Positions 1 to 11,944 of a stretch of 64,000 nucleotides of DNA are shown here, piece by piece. The number at the start of each line of letters is the position of its first letter. The first letter of the stretch is position 1. The stretch is taken from NCBI GenBank assembly GCA_041690595.1, contig JAWLHB010000025.1, forward strand, positions 1 through 64,000, in the 5' to 3' direction. The notes under the pieces were generated by a model. The model was not told the origin of the DNA. It did not search any database and saw nothing but the letters and a program-made list of their open reading frames with translations. Source of the stretch: Lentisphaeria bacterium. GTDB taxonomy: Bacteria > Verrucomicrobiota > Lentisphaeria > JABSQK01 > JAWLHB01. A program made the translations under genes and the position numbers.

Positions 1-91
1 GAAAAGTATTCGGAGGATCACGGAGATCCAAAAGTGAGGTGAACTTATTTCCGCAGAAATGCCCACAAGCGGCAAATTTTTAACACGCCAG

Positions 92-133
92 GTCTGACGT
101 GGCTGACGGGTCGGACGAGGTCTGACGGGTCTG
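92..133. repeat. Short ~9-10-nt periodic tract (gtctgacg/gtcggacg units)
   Basis: gtctgacgt-ggctgacgg-gtcggacga-ggtctgacgg-gtctg read directly. Confidence 0.6.
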
Positions 134-217: not shown

Positions 218-1240
218 CTATGCGGTAGTGGGCTCGGGCAATGTGGCGAGGGCAGGGGCACCGACGCGGAGGAAGGTGCGGTAGGCCCAGTCATCCCATT
301 CGGGGGTGACGCCAATGCCATGGAGATCGCCATAGTTTTTGGCGATGAAGCCGCCGCGGAAGGTCTCCACCAGGCGTGTCGTTTCGCGCTCGATCAGGTC
401 GCGATCGCCAGTCGGCAGTACCTTCTGGATGTCGCATGGGGAGTAGAGACCCACGCCGTGGCGGCGCAGGGTGGCGGCAAGGGCGGGCTGATCATAGACG
501 GCGGGTTGATCGAACTGCAGGCAATCGATACCGGCCTCGCAGAGATCGTCGATCAGGTCGGCATTGTAGCCACAGGAGTGCTGGAGGACCTTCATGCCGT
601 ACTGGTGGGCTCGCGAGGTGAGGCGTTCATAAAGGGGACGATACAGGCGCCGCCACATGGGCGGGCCGATGAGCAGCCTGTCCTGCGTACCCAGATCCTC
701 ACAGAACATGATGCCATCGAGCCCCGCTTCGCCAAAACGATCGATGACCTTCTCCAGCAGCGAGGTTACCCGATCGTGAAGAATGGCGATCCGCTCCGGC
801 TCGGTAACGACGTCCATGAAGTAGATCTCCATCCGGCGCATGTAGCGGCAGATGGAAAAGGGCCAGCCGGGGAGGAAGCCGCAGCGGAACTTGTCGGTGT
901 CGGCCTTGCCCAGCTCGCGTGCGGCGGTGAAGAATTCGGGCGTATCGAGGGCGGGGAGTTCGAGGCTGTCGAGGGCATTCCAATCTTCGAGGACCGGCTT
1001 GCAGACTTCGCCTCCCTGCGACATGCCGAGCTTGCGATGCCAGAGGTTGCCCCAGATATCCGTGTGGAACTCGACATCGCCTTCGGTCCAGATCCTGGTC
1101 TCGATGGTGTGCTGGACACCGCAACCGGCAAAGTCGTTGACGCGAGTGTCGCCGCTGAAGTTGAGTCCAATCCGGTCGTCGCAGCGGAACTCGATATTGG
1201 CGATGATGACTTCTCTTGGCGTCATGAGCTTGTTCTCCAT
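218..1240 (-). CDS. Uroporphyrinogen decarboxylase / MtaA-CmuA-like family protein
   Basis: 340 aa; TDIWG, EDLGTQDRLLIGP, HSCG (H-x-C metal motif), DIQKVLPTG. Confidence 0.85.
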   Translation of the reverse strand: MENKLMTPREVIIANIEFRCDDRIGLNFSGDTRVNDFAGCGVQHTIETRIWTEGDVEFHTDIWGNLWHRKLGMSQGGEVCKPVLEDWNALDSLELPALDTPEFFTAARELGKADTDKFRCGFLPGWPFSICRYMRRMEIYFMDVVTEPERIAILHDRVTSLLEKVIDRFGEAGLDGIMFCEDLGTQDRLLIGPPMWRRLYRPLYERLTSRAHQYGMKVLQHSCGYNADLIDDLCEAGIDCLQFDQPAVYDQPALAATLRRHGVGLYSPCDIQKVLPTGDRDLIERETTRLVETFRGGFIAKNYGDLHGIGVTPEWDDWAYRTFLRVGAPALATLPEPTTA

Positions 1241-1252
1241 GGCGGGCTTGAG

Positions 1253-3196
1253 TTATTGCTTGCGTGGAAGATAAATGACGAACTCGGTGCCGACTCCTTC
1301 GGTGGTGTCAACATGGATCCAGCCACCATGGTTTTCGACACAGCCGTAGGCCATGGCCAACCCCATGCCTGTTCCTTTGGATTGCTTGGTCGTATAAAAC
1401 GGTTCGAAAATACGGCGTTTGACGTCGTCACTCATGCCGCAGCCGTTGTCGCGAATGCGGATGACGACATAGTCTTCGGGACGACGGTCCGTCCAGGCCT
1501 TGTTCCAGCCGGGGGTGAACTCGGTGGCGGGTTCACCGCGGAAGATGATACGGCCGTCATCCTCCGCCAGGGCATCCTGGGCGTTGAGCAACAGGTTGAA
1601 GAGCATCTGCTGCAACTGGGTGAAGTCGCCTTCCAGAACCATGGGGTCGGGGTGGAGGACGACCCGCAGCTTGGAGTTCTTGCCGAGCAGGGGGCGAAAG
1701 AGTTCTTCGGTCTGCTTGATCAGGTTCATGATCTCGATGCTTTCCACGTGGTACTTGCCGCCACGGGCGAAGCCGAGGAGCTGGTCGGTGAGTGTCGAGG
1801 CACGTTCGGTGGCGGTGGCGATATTGGAGACCATCTGGCGGCTCTTGTCGTCCCGTCGCACCTGCTTCTCGAGAATATCGAGGCTGCCCTGGATGGCATG
1901 CAGCAGATTGTTGAAGTCGTGGGCGATGCCACCTGCAAGCTTGCCGACAGCCTCCATGCGTTGAGAATGCAGTAATTGCTCCTGAAGTTCCTGGCGCTCG
2001 CTTTCCAGGCGCTTGCGCTGCGTGATGTCGCGCGCGACGACCAGGCCGCCTTCCGTTTCCTGCAGGAAGAGAGGCGAGATGACGGCATCGAGGATGAGGT
2101 CCTGTCCCGTCCGGGTGACCATGTGCAGCTCGTGCACGGCAACATGCAGGCGCTGTTCGCTCTGGGTTTCGTCAGGATTCGGATAGATCTGCTTCCAGAC
2201 GCCTTCCCAGTCAAAGGGGCGACCATCGCCAGTCCGGCAGAAGGATTGAAGTTTGAGTTTGAGGAGGTGGTCGATGAAGTAGCCGGACGAATCGATAGCG
2301 GTGCGATTGGCGTCCAGGATGATGCCGTTTCTGCCCAGGAGAAAGATAAGGTCATTGCTGTTTTCCACCACCATGCGGTAACGGCCTTCCCATTCGCGCA
2401 CGTTGGCGTGGAGGCGTTGCGCATGGCCATAGGCGCCGAGAAAGGCAACCAGAATGTCCAGCGGGCGGCGGGGCGAGGTTTCGTGGGTGCGCGGTGCATC
2501 GCGCATCTTGAGATAGACAGTGGTCAGCAGGCTGACCCAAAGCATCGCGCTGGCGCGGGAGAGGTAGGAGCTGCGCAGCCCGTCCCACCAGTCCGCGGCT
2601 GGGAAGCGGATGACCAACTCGTAGAAGAAGGCGTCAAGCACCTCGACGAAGATGAGGGCGCCGGTCACCGAGACGCCCAGGCGGCAGTTGCGGCCGCGCA
2701 GGATCTCGTAGACAACAGGCAGGGCGAAGAACTGGATGAGGATGGAGAGCAGGGAGGCGAGCATGAAGGTGCGGCTGGTCGAGAAGAGGTTCTGCATGAA
2801 GGAGGAGTTCAGTTCCAGCTCGTAGGCGGGGAAATCGGTGCTGACCTGCTTTTCGGAAAGGAAGGTGATGTAGATGAAGATGCCGAGAATGGCGAGCATA
2901 CCGAGCATGAGACGCTGGGTCTCGAGCGTTCCATCGACGATGTAGATGATCAGCAGGGCGGCCATGAAGGGGGTGAAGAAGACAGTGCTGCCGATGCTGA
3001 TCTCGAAACCGAGGTAGATACCGGTCAGCTTGATGCCCGCTGCCGTGATGAACTGGGTAAGGACCATTAGGGCGCCGAGGGCCAGGTAGAAGGCCGCGGA
3101 ACCGATGGCGAACTTCAGGCGATGCAGGAGCATGATGGAGACCAGAATGAAGGTCAGCTCGAGCAGGGCCAATCCGTATGCAGGCAACAGGGTCAT
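1253..3196 (-). CDS. Membrane-bound PAS sensor histidine kinase with VUT/YhhQ-like N-terminal membrane domain
   Basis: Start taken at ATG 3196 (MTLLPAY); about 8 hydrophobic segments, PAS (YRMVVENSNDLIF), HisKA (LAGGIAHDFNNLL), N box (NLLLNAQDA), G1/F/G2 boxes (DNGCG, FEPFYTTK, GTGMGL); no receiver domain. Confidence 0.9.
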   Translation of the reverse strand: MTLLPAYGLALLELTFILVSIMLLHRLKFAIGSAAFYLALGALMVLTQFITAAGIKLTGIYLGFEISIGSTVFFTPFMAALLIIYIVDGTLETQRLMLGMLAILGIFIYITFLSEKQVSTDFPAYELELNSSFMQNLFSTSRTFMLASLLSILIQFFALPVVYEILRGRNCRLGVSVTGALIFVEVLDAFFYELVIRFPAADWWDGLRSSYLSRASAMLWVSLLTTVYLKMRDAPRTHETSPRRPLDILVAFLGAYGHAQRLHANVREWEGRYRMVVENSNDLIFLLGRNGIILDANRTAIDSSGYFIDHLLKLKLQSFCRTGDGRPFDWEGVWKQIYPNPDETQSEQRLHVAVHELHMVTRTGQDLILDAVISPLFLQETEGGLVVARDITQRKRLESERQELQEQLLHSQRMEAVGKLAGGIAHDFNNLLHAIQGSLDILEKQVRRDDKSRQMVSNIATATERASTLTDQLLGFARGGKYHVESIEIMNLIKQTEELFRPLLGKNSKLRVVLHPDPMVLEGDFTQLQQMLFNLLLNAQDALAEDDGRIIFRGEPATEFTPGWNKAWTDRRPEDYVVIRIRDNGCGMSDDVKRRIFEPFYTTKQSKGTGMGLAMAYGCVENHGGWIHVDTTEGVGTEFVIYLPRKQ

Positions 3197-5196: not shown

Positions 5197-5862
5197 ATGT
5201 ATCGAAGCTGCTTTGCTGCTCTGTTGATGACGACGGTTTGGTGTGCCGGTGCACTGGAGTGGGAGAAGAGCTCCCTGGAGTTCGAGCTGCCAACCGGAGT
5301 ACTGACGGCAAAAGGATCGTTTCAGTTCACCAATACGGGTGAGGAGATGATTACCATCACCGATATCAAGACCAATTGCGGGTGCACGACGGCGACCCTT
5401 ACCAAACGCGCGTATGCGCCAGGGGAAAGGGGGATGATCGAGGCGGAGCTGACGCTGCAACAGGGAGAGACGCATCGTAGTCGCTTCATCACCGTCTTCT
5501 CGACGGATCGTCCGAAAGGGCACGTGCTGACTATTGCGGCCCGGGCACCGAAACTCGTCGATGTCAGCCCACGAATGCTCATCTGGTCGCATGCTGAAGG
5601 CAATGTGCGGAAGAGCGTGGTGGTCAGCGTGGAAGCCGATCAACCGATCCACATTACAGATGCCGAATCCACGTCGAGCAGCTTTCAAGTGAAGATCGAG
5701 ACCGTGAAGAAAGGTCGCCTTTACCATATTCACATCACCCCTACCACGACAGAAGTAAAGGCTACCGCGCGGATATCCCTTATGACTGATTTTCCCGAAG
5801 AGAGCCCGATCGTTTACTCGTGCTATGCGCGGGTCTTGGAAACGCTGGGCACGAAGCCATGA
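5197..5862 (+). CDS. DUF1573-domain (Ig-like) exported protein
   Basis: Signal peptide; F.FTNTG...I.DIKTNCGCT....PGE.G.I signature; GGAGG RBS. Confidence 0.85.
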   Translation: MYRSCFAALLMTTVWCAGALEWEKSSLEFELPTGVLTAKGSFQFTNTGEEMITITDIKTNCGCTTATLTKRAYAPGERGMIEAELTLQQGETHRSRFITVFSTDRPKGHVLTIAARAPKLVDVSPRMLIWSHAEGNVRKSVVVSVEADQPIHITDAESTSSSFQVKIETVKKGRLYHIHITPTTTEVKATARISLMTDFPEESPIVYSCYARVLETLGTKP

Positions 5863-6581
5863 AGCTGGCCCTGAGGCTCTGGCTGTGTCTCGTCTTCAGC
5901 CTTCCGCTACAGGCGAAGCTGGTCTGGGAAGAAACTGCGATCACCCGCACCGTACCACCTAACGTGGACGAAGTCGGCGCCCAATTCGTTTTTCGCAATA
6001 GCGGCGGAGATACGATCGAGATCGTGGATGTCAAGACCTCCTGTGGCTGCACGACTGCCGTTTCCGGCAAACATGAATACAAGCCCGGTGAAGAGGGCAG
6101 CATTGACGCCACCCTCAGCGTTGGGAGCCTCGCCGGCGACACCATGACCAAAAAGATCTACGTGCGGTATCGCGAAAAAGGCGAGACGAAGGTGGACGAA
6201 TTGAGCATCAGTGCTTACGCGCCAGAGTATGTGCGCCAGTCACGCAAGGCGTTGTCATGGGATCATGGCATGCTGGTGCTGCCGCAGCGCGTTATCTTCA
6301 GCGTGGTACACCATGAGCCGATTCACCTGCGCGAGGTGGTCGCTTCGCGGAGTGGTTTCACCTTCGAACTCAAGACCATCGCGCCCGGACGCAAGTACGA
6401 GTTGATCGTGGCGCCTGAGCCGAATGCCACAAGCCCCAGTTACGCGACACTTGAGGTGCTTGCCGACTTTCCCCCAGAGAAGCCCTTTGTGTACCAGGTT
6501 CAGGCGCGCCTCCAGCCCAATCGCCAGCACAGCGCGCTCTGGTATGCCTGGCGGCAACGCCTGGTACATCTGCTCTTCTGA
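5859..6581 (+). CDS. DUF1573-domain exported protein (paralogue)
   Basis: ATGA overlap with previous gene; signal peptide; FRNSG...DVKTSCGCT...PGEEGSI. Confidence 0.85.
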   Translation: MKLALRLWLCLVFSLPLQAKLVWEETAITRTVPPNVDEVGAQFVFRNSGGDTIEIVDVKTSCGCTTAVSGKHEYKPGEEGSIDATLSVGSLAGDTMTKKIYVRYREKGETKVDELSISAYAPEYVRQSRKALSWDHGMLVLPQRVIFSVVHHEPIHLREVVASRSGFTFELKTIAPGRKYELIVAPEPNATSPSYATLEVLADFPPEKPFVYQVQARLQPNRQHSALWYAWRQRLVHLLF

Positions 6582-9169: not shown

Positions 9170-11944
9170 GTGATCGTGAAGGAGAAGCTTCCACCCGATA
9201 CCGACATCAAGAGTCAGATGGCGGCAGGGTCGGTGCTGATATGTCGCCAAGTTCGGGCCGATTCCGCGGAGGTGGTAGGCAGCAAAGCCGCCCGTCTGGC
9301 CGCGCTTCAGGAAACGGTTGGCTGTCTGCCGCCGTGGTACGTGGTGACCGCCCCCGCCTTCGAAAAGGTCCTGCGCGATAACGGACTTCTGGAGTTGCTC
9401 GGCGATGTGATGCGATATGAGATCAGCGACGCCGCGTGGCATCAGGCGGCAAGGGAACTGAACCGCCGAATCATGGGCATCAGTTTCTCCGCCGATCTTC
9501 GCCAGGCTCTGGTGGCGGCGCATGATCAGCTCTTCTCGCCCAACGCCTGGGTGGCGGTGCGGTCGAGCGCCACTCCACCCATGAAGAGCGGATTGTGCAA
9601 AACTTTTGTTTTCATCCGGCGACGCGCTGAGATCGACGAGCACATCCTGAAGGTGTGGGCATCGGCTTTTTCGCCCGAAGCGGTGGCCTGGCGACGGCGG
9701 CACCATCTGCCGGCCGCCCGGCCGCATCTGGCGGTGCTGGTGCAGGAGATGGTGGACGCCACGACCAGCGGGGTTGTCTATACGGCGCACCCGGAGAGTG
9801 GCGATCCTCGCCAGCTCGTCATTCGCTCGCTCCTGGGCAATGGCAAGGCTTTGGGTGATCCCGCTTTCGGCACCGATGAATTCCGTGTCGACAAAGAGGA
9901 TATGGAAATCTACTCGACCGTGGGAGTAAAGAACAAGCGACTCATTCTCGAGCCTGAAAACGGCGGTCTGCGCGAAGTGCCGGTCGGACAAGCGCTGCAG
10001 ACCTCCAGCAGCCTGCGCGTCGACGATGTGGTGGACCTGGCGAGGCTGGGCATTCTGGTCGAGAACCATTTTGGACGTCCCCAGACGGTGAACTTCGCCT
10101 TGGATGCGCAGGAGCAGCTGGCTGTGCTGGAGGTGGTCGATATGGGCGATGTGCGCGAATACGGACCTGCTGCCGGCAACCCGTGCCAGTGGGACACGGC
10201 GGAGCTCTTCATCGACCGGGTCGGCCGCCTGACGCCCCTGCAATTCAGTGTCTGTCGTCGCCTCAACGAACTGGCTGGGCAAGCCTTCGCCCTGGCGCTG
10301 GGCGTCAGCGCGGAGGAACTCAACCGCCAGCGGCGCAGTGTCGCCGACATGCGCGGGCGGGTGCATGGGCATCTTTATGCCAATCTGGATGCATGTCGCA
10401 GCTATCTCGAAAGCTGTGCTACGGCGGACGCGGATCGCGAGAGTGTGGCCGCTTTTCTGGGTCTTTCCCGGCTTCCGGCAATGGAGTTGTTGCTCGCATC
10501 ATCGCCGAGCGCGGGGACGCTGGATCTCTGGACTACCGTGCGCACGCCCCCGCAGCTTGCCGGCATCATACATCAGGCAGACGACTTTCAGGGGCGTGTA
10601 CGCGAGCGGCTGGCCAGTTGGCGGGAGCTGCCACTGCGCCTCTTGCCACCGTCCCGGCTGATCAGCTTGCTGTATCAGGTCGAGGATGAGATTCTGGGTG
10701 CCTGGGCACCTGCCTGGTGCAATGACTATCATGCCTTCTGCGGGGCGCAGCAGGTGGCGGCCATGGGGCAGGAGGCGGGGCTGCGCGCCATGGATATCTC
10801 GCACTGGCATGTTCTGCTGGACGACGAGTTCGGAGCCGGGATTCGAGCGGCCCTCGACTTGATGGATCTTGCCGACATCATCCGCCGCTCTCATGATCTG
10901 CTGCAGATTCTCATGCAGACCGCGGCGCATGAGTGGTTTGACATTCAGGCTGCGCTTCCGCGGGGGCAGACCGGATATGTTGCCACGCGCGCCTGGATGA
11001 AGCGTCATGGACATCTGCCCACCTCCGGCTATGGACCTGACGGCGTGGCGTGGCTTCGCCATCCGGCTGCACTTGCCCGTCTCCTGCGCGCCTACGTCGT
11101 GCGGATGGATGAGGCGGAGTTGGATCCGGTGGCGCTGCTGCAGGCGCGTCGTGCCAGGCGCTCACGGGCTGAAGAGGCGTTCGCCCAGAGTCTGAGCGGC
11201 GCCTGGCTGACCCGGCCCAGGGCTGTCCTCCAGCGCACCTATGTCGATCGCACACGCGAAGCGCTGCGTTGCGCTCAGGCAGGGCGCATGCTGCTCTGCG
11301 AGGTGTGGGGCTGGCAGCGCGATTTACTGGAGGCGCTGGGGTACTGCCTGGCGCGTGAAGCCCTGCTGGCCAGCCCAGGCAGCGTGACTTACCTGACGCT
11401 CGAAGAGGTGAAGGCGTTGTTCAACGGCTCTGCCACTACCACCGATCTGGAAGGGCTGATCGATCTGCGGCGCCGAGAGGGAAGCAGCGGCGAGCATTCC
11501 CCGCCACCTGCCGAGCGCGCCTTCTATACCTATGGCATCGTTCACCATCGCAATCGTTTTGCCCAGGCGCAGGAGGCGGCGCCTGCCGACAGTCTGCGCG
11601 GAATCGGTTGCGAGTGCGGCAGCGTCACGGGCAGGGTGCGGTGGATGAGTTCGCCGCTCGATGCGCTTCCCGAACGGGGGGAGATCATCGCTGCCGAATC
11701 GCTGGATGCGGGGTGGGTTCCGCTTCTGCCGCTGGCGGCAGGAGTTCTGGTTCAACGCGGGCATGATTACTCCTTCCCGGCGATCATGGCCAGGGAGCTG
11801 GGGGTGCCGATGATCATGGGCATTCGCCAGTTGACCCGTCAGCGGATTCATGGCTGGCAGGTCGACATGAATGGCACCAACGGTATGGTTCACCTGCGTC
11901 GGGAACCGATCGACGCGGATCGTCACCCTGGGAAAGGCGGCTGA
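9170..11944 (+). CDS. PEP synthase / rifampin-phosphotransferase-like protein (ATP-grasp + central + swivel domain), catalytic motifs degenerate
   Basis: VGSKA, AVRSSA, VWASAFS, AVLVQEMV..SGV.YTA.P, C-terminal LRGIG....VTGRV and AIMARELGVP; start codon uncertain. Confidence 0.85.
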   Translation: MIVKEKLPPDTDIKSQMAAGSVLICRQVRADSAEVVGSKAARLAALQETVGCLPPWYVVTAPAFEKVLRDNGLLELLGDVMRYEISDAAWHQAARELNRRIMGISFSADLRQALVAAHDQLFSPNAWVAVRSSATPPMKSGLCKTFVFIRRRAEIDEHILKVWASAFSPEAVAWRRRHHLPAARPHLAVLVQEMVDATTSGVVYTAHPESGDPRQLVIRSLLGNGKALGDPAFGTDEFRVDKEDMEIYSTVGVKNKRLILEPENGGLREVPVGQALQTSSSLRVDDVVDLARLGILVENHFGRPQTVNFALDAQEQLAVLEVVDMGDVREYGPAAGNPCQWDTAELFIDRVGRLTPLQFSVCRRLNELAGQAFALALGVSAEELNRQRRSVADMRGRVHGHLYANLDACRSYLESCATADADRESVAAFLGLSRLPAMELLLASSPSAGTLDLWTTVRTPPQLAGIIHQADDFQGRVRERLASWRELPLRLLPPSRLISLLYQVEDEILGAWAPAWCNDYHAFCGAQQVAAMGQEAGLRAMDISHWHVLLDDEFGAGIRAALDLMDLADIIRRSHDLLQILMQTAAHEWFDIQAALPRGQTGYVATRAWMKRHGHLPTSGYGPDGVAWLRHPAALARLLRAYVVRMDEAELDPVALLQARRARRSRAEEAFAQSLSGAWLTRPRAVLQRTYVDRTREALRCAQAGRMLLCEVWGWQRDLLEALGYCLAREALLASPGSVTYLTLEEVKALFNGSATTTDLEGLIDLRRREGSSGEHSPPPAERAFYTYGIVHHRNRFAQAQEAAPADSLRGIGCECGSVTGRVRWMSSPLDALPERGEIIAAESLDAGWVPLLPLAAGVLVQRGHDYSFPAIMARELGVPMIMGIRQLTRQRIHGWQVDMNGTNGMVHLRREPIDADRHPGKGG

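What the first reader, a model, noticed from the sequence alone, without database searches (positions are those of the whole stretch)
1253..3196. Histidine kinase whose sensor looks like a VUT/YhhQ (queuosine-precursor) transporter: a possible transceptor
Seen: about 230 aa of multi-TM sequence precede a PAS-HisKA-HATPase core. Three segments match, in order and spacing, my recollection of the VUT/YhhQ consensus. IGSTVFFTPFMAALLIIYIVDGTLETQRLMLG matches G...FP..F...D...E.YG...AR.....G. FSTSRTFMLASLLSILIQFFALPVVYEILR matches F...PRI.LAS..A....Q..D...F..L+. VSVTGALIFVEVLDAFFY matches R...ST..SQ..DT..F. Several polar transporter residues are replaced by hydrophobic ones. Inference: a transporter fold repurposed as a ligand sensor. 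The kinase has no receiver domain and no response regulator is in the window. It lies 12 bp upstream of a URO-D/MtaA-like gene and divergent from an exported-protein operon.
Basis: partly seen in the sequence, partly recalled or inferred. Interest (0 to 1): 0.72.

Follow-up and report, generated by a model that had tools for sequence, protein, structure and literature searches.

The report
Transporter-fold kinase with distant receiver partner
This membrane sensor kinase carries a sensing domain related to YhhQ-type vitamin and queuosine-precursor transporters, a design Pfam already lists as VUPS, and it likely signals through a separately encoded receiver protein that is present or absent together with it across the sampled genomes of one bacterial class.

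Summary
Window 1253-3196(-) encodes a 647-aa sensor-PAS-HisKA-HATPase kinase without a receiver. Its sensor is Pfam VUPS (56.9 bits, cut-off 27), so the transporter-like sensor is already catalogued; this scan noted VUPS kinases in at least 9 other genomes. VUPS is homologous to Vut_1/YhhQ (profile E 9e-10). The predicted fold is an ECF S-component plus one N-terminal helix, like 5TMR-LYT kinases. The Asp/basic pocket pair is kept; inner-half polar residues are lost. Nothing ties it to queuosine precursors, and the URO-D neighbour is not conserved.

New here: the kinase is single-copy in 60 of 67 same-class (Lentisphaeria) genomes and has a likely partner on another contig, a dead kinase core fused to an intact receiver. 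Presence matches in 66 of 67 genomes (59 both, 7 neither). It is the only one of 22 HDFNN-type kinases in this genome without its own receiver. A 2.1-Mb relative has just two kinases and two receivers, which pairs them by elimination. The partner follows rodA in 15 of 15 same-order genomes. The joint absences are only about 2-4 independent events. Ligand, phosphotransfer and output are untested.

The parts
1253..3196 (-). Gene for the 647-aa VUPS-PAS-HisKA-HATPase sensor kinase (P0001); single copy, no receiver domain
3119..3190 (-). Extra N-terminal membrane helix H0 (residues 3-26); Leu9/Leu12/Phe16 and Glu13 (85 of 99 orthologues) conserved; likely dimer contact by analogy to 5TMR-LYT kinases
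   Evidence: analogy from PMC11109136
2489..3121 (-). Six-helix core with predicted ECF S-component fold (residues 26-236); Pfam VUPS match is 2510-3142 (residues 19-229)
2633..2635 (-). Asp188 in helix 5, aligned to the invariant Asp of Vut_1; candidate pocket residue (65 of 99 orthologues)
2555..2557 (-). Arg214 in helix 6, aligned to the invariant Lys of Vut_1; candidate pocket residue (82 of 99 orthologues)
2363..2458 (-). Helical linker (residues 247-278) from helix 6 to the PAS domain, with the invariant WEGR stretch; likely signal-transmission helix
2009..2383 (-). PAS domain (residues 272-396); Pfam hits below cut-off, PAS-type secondary structure in the model
1760..1945 (-). HisKA/DHp domain of HDFNN (CckA-like hybrid) type; His426 at 1919-1921; His433 invariant and Gln436 nearly invariant in 23 close homologues
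1259..1630 (-). HATPase_c domain with N, G1, F and G2 boxes intact; the protein ends right after it
218..1240 (-). URO-D/MtaA-like gene 12 bp downstream; a neighbour, probably not part of the system

Best explanation
The gene encodes a membrane histidine kinase whose input domain is a VUPS domain related to YhhQ transporters, predicted to fold like an ECF S-component, and it likely senses a small molecule without transporting it and would pass its phosphate to a receiver protein encoded on another contig. Shown here: the domain content, the Vut_1 homology, the lack of a receiver, class-wide single copy, and the matching presence of the partner (G000:C10:135639-136817, P0294; degenerate kinase core plus intact receiver). 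Inferred steps: (1) a small polar, probably heterocyclic ligand binds the outward pocket lined by Asp188 and Arg214; (2) helix H0, the cytoplasmic extension of helix 6 and the loss of inner polar residues stop translocation; (3) the movement passes through the linker and PAS domain to the dimeric DHp/ATPase core and sets His426 phosphorylation; (4) the phosphate goes in trans to the partner's receiver Asp, the pair behaving as a hybrid kinase split into two genes, with the dead core perhaps docking on the active kinase; (5) the receiver has no output domain and four small relatives have no Hpt, so it likely acts by binding a target protein, possibly in cell-wall growth control given its place behind rodA.
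For: Sensor: VUPS 56.9 bits vs cut-off 27; 29 of 29 orthologue domains hit VUPS. The top 13 of 48,161 PDB chains are ECF S-component-type proteins, Z 7.0-9.2, rmsd 4.2-5.0, 148-170 aligned, model residues 25/27-231/236. BFVD rank 2 is a 'putative vitamin uptake transporter', TM 0.53, E 2.5e-3. For homologue P0004, an Atlas Vut_1 cluster matches at TM 0.62/0.72 over 202 residues. VUPS also sits on GGDEF and adenylate-cyclase proteins, as a mobile sensor would. An AxxxA pair occurs at no helix-1 position in more than 10 of 99 orthologues, and an EcfT/CbiQ match occurs in only 7 of 41 genomes. Partner: in 67 same-class genomes at least 90% complete, 59 have both, 7 neither, 1 kinase only, 0 receiver only; 0 of 134 other-class genomes have the receiver at 1e-40. 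Genus g23: 11 both, 5 neither. Controls do not track the kinase: CpaB agrees in 43 of 67 and RodA is kept in all 7 kinase-less genomes. 21 of 22 HDFNN kinases in this genome carry their own receiver; this one does not. 17 of the 20 best paralogous matches to the partner's receiver are receivers of HDFNN hybrids, against 7 of the other 72. G134 has two receivers and two histidine kinases; the other two are an NtrB-like/NtrC-like pair that is adjacent in G004 and G072 and kept in kinase-less genomes. The partner's N-terminal part aligns to the kinase core (Prob 97.6, 233 columns), has His in 0 of 23 at the H-box site and degenerate N and G1 boxes, while its receiver DD, D, S and K are in 23 of 23.
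Against: No ligand, transport or phosphotransfer data exist here. Z of 7-9 is under the roughly 13 the tool advises for helical bundles; the support is that 13 related folds rank first. The 7 joint absences are related genomes: five belong to one genus, so there are about 2-4 independent events, and some may be lineages that never had the pair; the Fisher p-values overstate. In the 41-genome set 3 have the receiver without the kinase (G007, G014, G037; 81-91% complete), and G178 has the kinase without the receiver. The dead core matches an NtrB-like core almost as well (Prob 96.5), so common descent from this kinase is not shown, and pairwise BLAST finds nothing. Asp188 is missing in about a third of orthologues. 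The rodA link is absent in 14 of 14 wide loci outside the order. The Vut_1 reference set is narrow (Neff about 3), which inflates apparent invariance.
Confidence: 0.65

Rival explanations
1. The kinase is a 7-deazaguanine (preQ0/preQ1/queuine) or purine sensor that kept the YhhQ ligand. This is compatible with the best explanation and only fixes the ligand.
For: Homology to Vut_1 and retention of the Asp/basic pair. E. coli YhhQ transports preQ0 and the family may include other purine transporters (PMC5372724 passages). TGT is in 40 of 41 genomes. The 79%-identical relative has a nucleoside 2-deoxyribosyltransferase-like gene directly downstream, a single case.
Against: No Q-pathway gene was recognised among neighbours in 21 loci. 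The kinase is kept in 27 QueC-positive and 8 QueC-negative genomes. Family f6 has a separate stand-alone Vut_1 in 7 of 7 genomes. Several other conserved Vut_1 positions (S131, E/Q139, Q199, Y200) are not well kept.
Confidence: 0.25
2. The partner is a brake, not the output: a pseudokinase-receiver that docks on the kinase and drains its phosphate, as P. aeruginosa RetS does to GacS (recalled), while the real output is the NtrC-like regulator or another protein.
For: Dead kinase core plus intact receiver; no output domain; no Hpt in 4 of 4 small relatives; the NtrC-like regulator is in all 10 small genomes examined.
Against: The NtrC-like regulator has its own NtrB-like kinase and is kept when this kinase is absent. 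Families f7, f11, f13 and f15 have dropped the dead core and kept the receiver.
Confidence: 0.15
3. A true transceptor: the domain still imports its ligand while signalling.
For: YhhQ, some BioY proteins and BtuM work without an ECF module (PMC5372724; PMC11109136), so lack of EcfT does not exclude transport.
Against: Inner-half polar residues of the transporter are replaced in helices 2, 4, 5 and 6. H0 and the cytoplasmic tail are expected to block toppling (speculation in PMC11109136). f6 keeps a separate Vut_1.
Confidence: 0.07
4. The membrane domain no longer binds a small molecule and serves as an anchor or a sensor of membrane or cell-wall state; the kinase and receiver co-occur because both belong to one larger class-specific module, without direct transfer.
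For: Asp188 and Gln48 are lost in about a third of orthologues. The most invariant sensor residues (Tyr85, Gly89, Gln94, Pro160) lie on the inner side. MreD uses the same fold for a cell-shape role (PMC11109136). The receiver follows rodA in one order.
Against: Arg214, Gln117 and Glu13 stay in 82-85 of 99 orthologues, and the Asp/Lys pair in 88-95% of distant VUPS domains. Kinase type and receiver type match, and pairing by elimination holds in G134.
Confidence: 0.2

Closest known systems
Pfam PF20973 VUPS (vitamin uptake-like sensor) proteins, VUPS-PAS-HisKA-HATPase_c architecture
   Same: Over the curated cut-off across nearly the whole model; the same domain on kinases, hybrids, GGDEF and cyclase proteins.
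   Different: A divergent branch (57 bits against 120-218 for typical members), single-copy across one class, with a matching unlinked receiver. I could not read the paper behind the family.
Vut_1/YhhQ/QPTR (PF02592, COG1738) queuosine-precursor transporters
   Same: Homologous six-helix core with the Asp/basic pair kept.
   Different: P0001 has no Vut_1 hit, is fused to a kinase, has lost inner polar residues and shows no Q-gene context.
5TMR-LYT (PF07694) sensor kinases BtsS, YpdA, KinB with S-component fold (PMC11109136)
   Same: Seven helices (H0 plus S-component core), polar residue and leucines in H0, no conserved AxxxA, helix 6 running into cytoplasmic signalling domains.
   Different: No PF07694 hit. 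That paper's main text and searchable supplements do not mention VUPS, Vut or YhhQ.
CckA-type hybrid kinases and the CckA-ChpT-CpdR/DivL circuit of Alphaproteobacteria (circuit recalled)
   Same: HDFNN-type core (VirA/CckA models rank first, all under cut-off); a degenerate kinase and an output-less receiver take part.
   Different: The receiver is in trans; the dead core has no phospho-His, so it is not a ChpT-like phosphotransferase; no Hpt in four small relatives.
RetS-GacS of Pseudomonas aeruginosa (recalled, not checked here)
   Same: A catalytically dead kinase core with receiver acting on a separate active kinase.
   Different: The partner has no sensor or membrane part, and several families keep only its receiver.

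Membership tests
VUPS (PF20973) | Score over the Pfam gathering cut-off across the model | tested here: met
   56.9 bits vs 27, model positions 2-206 of 206
VUPS (PF20973) | N-terminal integral-membrane domain fused to a signalling output | tested here: met
   Seven helices, then PAS-HisKA-HATPase_c
VUPS (PF20973) | Ligand sensing by the domain | not testable with these tools
   Needs binding or kinase assays; none found in the papers searched
Vut_1/YhhQ transporters (PF02592) | Score over the Vut_1 cut-off | tested here: not met
   No hit for P0001 at E up to 1 or in the genome; 1 of 29 orthologue domains hits
Vut_1/YhhQ transporters (PF02592) | Homology of the six-helix core | tested here: met
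   Merged profile Prob 96.5, E 9e-10, controls Prob 0.2 or less; TM 0.62/0.72 for homologue P0004
Vut_1/YhhQ transporters (PF02592) | Stand-alone protein of about 220-240 aa with the inner polar residues (D70, D/N142, S166/T167, T211/P212 in L056 numbering) | tested here: not met
   647-aa fusion; most of these positions are hydrophobic
Vut_1/YhhQ transporters (PF02592) | Association with queuosine-pathway genes | tested here: not met
   None recognised in 21 neighbourhoods, which were read from clustered ORF lists, not profile-scanned; presence independent of QueC
Vut_1/YhhQ transporters (PF02592) | Transport of preQ0/preQ1/queuine | not testable with these tools
   Needs complementation or uptake assay
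ECF S-component fold | Six-helix S-component topology | tested here: met
   Top 13 of 48,161 chains are S-component-type, Z 7.0-9.2, rmsd 4.2-5.0, 148-170 aligned; predicted model, modest Z
ECF S-component (working with an ECF module) | Conserved AxxxA in helix 1 and an EcfT partner | tested here: not met
   AxxxA in at most 10 of 99 orthologues at any helix-1 position, though P0001 itself has Ala35/Ala39; EcfT/CbiQ match in 7 of 41 genomes, including this one
5TM-5TMR_LYT (PF07694) kinases | Pfam PF07694 match | tested here: not met
   No hit in P0001 or in 29 orthologue domains
Class I histidine kinase, HDFNN/CckA-like type | H-box His and N, G1, F, G2 boxes | tested here: met
   His426, Asn534/Asn538, Asp583, Gly585/587, Phe600, Gly608/610/612 invariant or nearly so in 23 homologues
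Hybrid histidine kinase | C-terminal receiver in the same chain | tested here: not met
   Ends at residue 647; the only one of 22 HDFNN kinases in the genome without a receiver
Cognate kinase-receiver pair with P0294 | Matching presence across genomes and matching kinase/receiver type | tested here: met
   66 of 67 concordant; type match and elimination; few independent events
Cognate kinase-receiver pair with P0294 | Preferential phosphotransfer in vitro | not testable with these tools
   Needs phosphotransfer profiling

The most novel reading that the evidence does not exclude
Lentisphaeria share an ancestral two-gene signalling module: a hybrid kinase split into a YhhQ-derived S-component-fold sensor kinase and an unlinked pseudokinase-receiver. 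It is one of only two two-component systems left in the smallest genomes that keep it, and it couples an external queuosine-precursor or purine-like cue to RodA-dependent cell-wall growth through a receiver that binds its target directly. VUPS would be a second large S-component-fold receptor family beside 5TMR-LYT.
Probability: 0.15. Interest if true: 0.75.

Novelty: new variant of a known kind. Interest (0 to 1): 0.48.

Why it matters
Two additions make an untested family testable. The predicted S-component fold points to a pocket and two residues to mutate, and links VUPS to the transporter-to-receptor story so far described for 5TMR-LYT kinases. The candidate partner gives an orphan kinase a read-out, so ligands can be screened by phosphotransfer. 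The pair is kept in 2.1-2.5 Mb relatives that have only two to four receivers, which suggests a core regulatory role in a little-studied class. I found no paper on it, but the library lacks the likely source paper of VUPS and most subscription journals.

Tried and rejected
URO-D link: rejected. It is next to the kinase only in this genome among 21 loci, the 79%-identical relative has another gene there, and the genome has 25 long URO-D matches, counting this gene. Divergent exported-protein operon: not conserved. Queuosine context: no dependence on QueC or stand-alone Vut_1. Tad pilus link, prompted by one neighbourhood: CpaB does not track the kinase. RodA co-loss: not seen. Complex prediction of kinase core 395-647 with full-length P0294 gave no verdict, scores 0.20 and 0.14 against a mark of 0.32, controls not folded; it is not counted either way. 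Foldseek of the full-length model returned only kinase cores among the rows shown. Sequence search of the PDB with the sensor profile found nothing significant. The genome-contig scan with A1 was swamped by unrelated kinases and not used. Direct orthologue-only profile comparisons with Vut_1 were weak. BLASTP of kinase against partner was not significant. The hybrid in kinase-less G172 is an ordinary PAS hybrid with a weakly matching receiver, not an unsplit form as far as the locus shows. Paper searches for VUPS or this system gave nothing relevant. The mSystems 2022 Shewanella algae paper, which I recall as the possible source of VUPS, is not held, so that attribution is unverified.
Full report
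The observation. Window 1253-3196(-) encodes a 647-aa protein. Pfam finds VUPS, 'vitamin uptake-like sensor', at residues 19-229 (56.9 bits, cut-off 27), weak PAS hits at 272-396, HisKA at 418-479, HATPase_c at 523-646 and no receiver. All catalytic boxes are conserved in 23 close homologues. The genome has 141 receiver matches, none in the window. The URO-D-like gene starts 12 bp downstream.

Relation to YhhQ. P0001 has no Vut_1 hit of its own, and the orthologue-only profile is weak against Vut_1. Three orthologues do hit Vut_1, one over the cut-off. A profile merging 99 orthologue domains and 63 more distant VUPS domains aligns to 127 Vut_1 proteins over 197 columns (Prob 96.5, E 9e-10); three reversed and five shuffled controls reach Prob 0.2 at most. 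Domains covering fewer than 190 profile positions were dropped before building these sets. The sensor model is confident (pLDDT 92.4, seven helices). Its top 13 matches among 48,161 solved chains are ECF S-component-type proteins, titled as folate, riboflavin, pantothenate, biotin, thiamin, cobalamin and metal transporters, covering residues about 26-236 with Z 7.0-9.2. These Z values are modest for helical bundles; the weight comes from their consistency. A phage 'vitamin uptake transporter' ranks second in BFVD, and the Atlas model of homologue P0004 matches a Vut_1 cluster at TM 0.62/0.72.

What changed in the sensor. Mapped through the profiles, the Vut_1 Asp in helix 5 and Lys in helix 6 survive as Asp188 (65 of 99 orthologues) and Arg214 (82 of 99). 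Polar residues in the inner halves of helices 2, 4, 5 and 6 are replaced (D70->L82 with low confidence, D/N142->L159, S166/T167->A180/L181, P212->L223). Sidedness is inferred from the cytoplasmic kinase and the basic loops, not from coordinates. An extra helix H0 carries a conserved Glu13 and leucines. Partipilo and Slotboom 2024 (PMC11109136; I read parts 1-4 of 8, abstract to methods) describe the same plan for 5TMR-LYT kinases: S-component core, H0, no AxxxA, outward pocket, and, as their speculation, a toppling motion cut short by H0 and the cytoplasmic tail. Their main text and searchable supplements never mention VUPS, Vut or YhhQ (one scanned file was not searchable). Zallot 2017 (PMC5372724, passages) notes that TCDB files YhhQ with ECF-type porters, so the fold link is not wholly unexpected.

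Distribution and context. Of 60 proteins I scanned from the 150 listed by the representative search, distant ones carry VUPS on kinases, hybrids, GGDEF proteins and adenylate cyclases. The orthologous kinase is found in 35 of 41 relatives and in 60 of 67 same-class genomes at least 90% complete, one match each, against 8 weaker matches in 134 other-class genomes. Source names on homologues point to Lentisphaeria. Its neighbours are not conserved in 21 loci. It is kept whether or not QueC is present (27 and 8 genomes), and family f6 has a separate Vut_1 as well. So nothing here selects a queuosine precursor as the ligand.

The partner. I listed receivers in five small genomes with the kinase and five without. 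All five with it have an orphan receiver of the CckA-hybrid type; none of the five without it does. The orthologue in this genome is G000:C10:135639-136817(+), P0294, 392 aa. Across the same 67 genomes, 59 have both genes, 7 neither, 1 the kinase only, none the receiver only; 0 of 134 other-class genomes have it at 1e-40. In genus g23, 11 have both and 5 neither. In the 41-genome set, 35 have both, 3 neither, and 3 fragmented assemblies the receiver only. CpaB agrees with the kinase in only 43 of 67 and RodA stays in all 7 kinase-less genomes. The absences are among kin, so they amount to about 2-4 events, and some may be primary absences.

Three further lines point the same way. This kinase is the only one of 22 HDFNN-type kinases in the genome without its own receiver. 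The partner's receiver most resembles receivers of HDFNN hybrids (17 of the top 20 paralogues, 7 of the other 72). G134 (2.1 Mb, 97% complete) has two receivers and two histidine kinases, and the other two form the NtrB-like/NtrC-like pair that is adjacent in G004 and G072 and survives in kinase-less genomes. The kinase also has invariant His433 and near-invariant Gln436 in DHp helix 1, unlike the 21 hybrids, and the receiver has an invariant Trp in helix 1; these are the usual specificity surfaces (general knowledge).

Anatomy of the partner. Its first 270 residues are a degenerate DHp/ATPase core (Prob 97.6 over 233 columns to this kinase's core, 96.5 to an NtrB-like core). None of 23 long forms has His at the H-box site and the N and G1 boxes have decayed, while all receiver catalytic residues are in 23 of 23. 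Families f7, f11, f13 and f15 keep only the roughly 135-150-aa receiver. No Hpt was found in 4 of 4 small relatives. The gene directly follows rodA in 15 of 15 same-order genomes, overlapping it here, with murD downstream in 6; it does not in 14 of 14 wide loci from other orders.

Mechanism. Most likely a small polar ligand binds the outward pocket, is not transported, and shifts the kinase dimer through helix 6, the linker and PAS; His426 then phosphorylates the partner's receiver in trans, and the receiver acts by binding a protein target. The pairing I put at about 0.8, the sensor-not-transporter reading at about 0.85, a deazaguanine or purine ligand at about 0.25, and a cell-wall target at about 0.2. 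Comparisons with CpdR, DivL, ChpT and RetS are recalled and were not checked in papers.

Literature and novelty. Searches for VUPS or for this system found nothing relevant (listings only). PMC11570991, PMC11130926 and bioRxiv 10.1101/2021.11.05.467447 (passages) gave no YhhQ pocket residues and no VUPS; from PMC10333796 I saw one reference entry. The mSystems 2022 paper I recall as the possible VUPS source is not held, so it or its supplements may already report the fold or the Vut_1 link. This scan has noted VUPS kinases in at least 9 other genomes and nothing like the partner. Verdict: the sensor is a new member of a catalogued family; the split kinase and pseudokinase-receiver module is a new variant and the reason for a middling score.

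Noticed in passing
G000:C10:135639-136817 (L184:8640-9818), outside the window: Pseudokinase-receiver gene P0294 overlapping the end of rodA; candidate partner of the kinase.
   Followed up: yes
   Followed up: partly
L142:1892-2308: The closest relative (79% identical) has a nucleoside 2-deoxyribosyltransferase-like gene right after the kinase; single case.
   Followed up: partly
L051-L057 and L026-L028: Family f6 lacks full-length QueC in 7 of 7 genomes, has a stand-alone Vut_1 in 7 of 7, and has among the most diverged sensors, with Asp188 lost in the three g12 domains aligned. One lineage only.
   Followed up: partly
L262, L270, L273: A Ser/Thr protein kinase gene lies directly next to the receiver gene in three genomes outside the order; in L273 a Tad pilus cluster follows.
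   Followed up: partly
window 1-100 and 147-201: Bases 1-100 recur at 98-99% identity at four other places, two at contig starts; 147-201 matches arrays of roughly 24-bp period on several contigs. Probably a mobile-element end and an intergenic repeat family.
   Followed up: no
window 9170-11944 (+): PPDK_N plus C-terminal PEP-utilizers domain, the layout of rifampin phosphotransferase-like proteins (recalled); convergent with recX.
   Followed up: no
window 5197-6581 (+): Two tandem DUF1573 Ig-like exported proteins; the first weakly matches the OS_HP2 (seleno)protein model, under cut-off.
   Followed up: no
G004 (L163, L165-L173): A 2.0-Mb relative has many decayed receiver genes with internal stops, yet keeps both the kinase and its candidate partner intact.
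   Followed up: no
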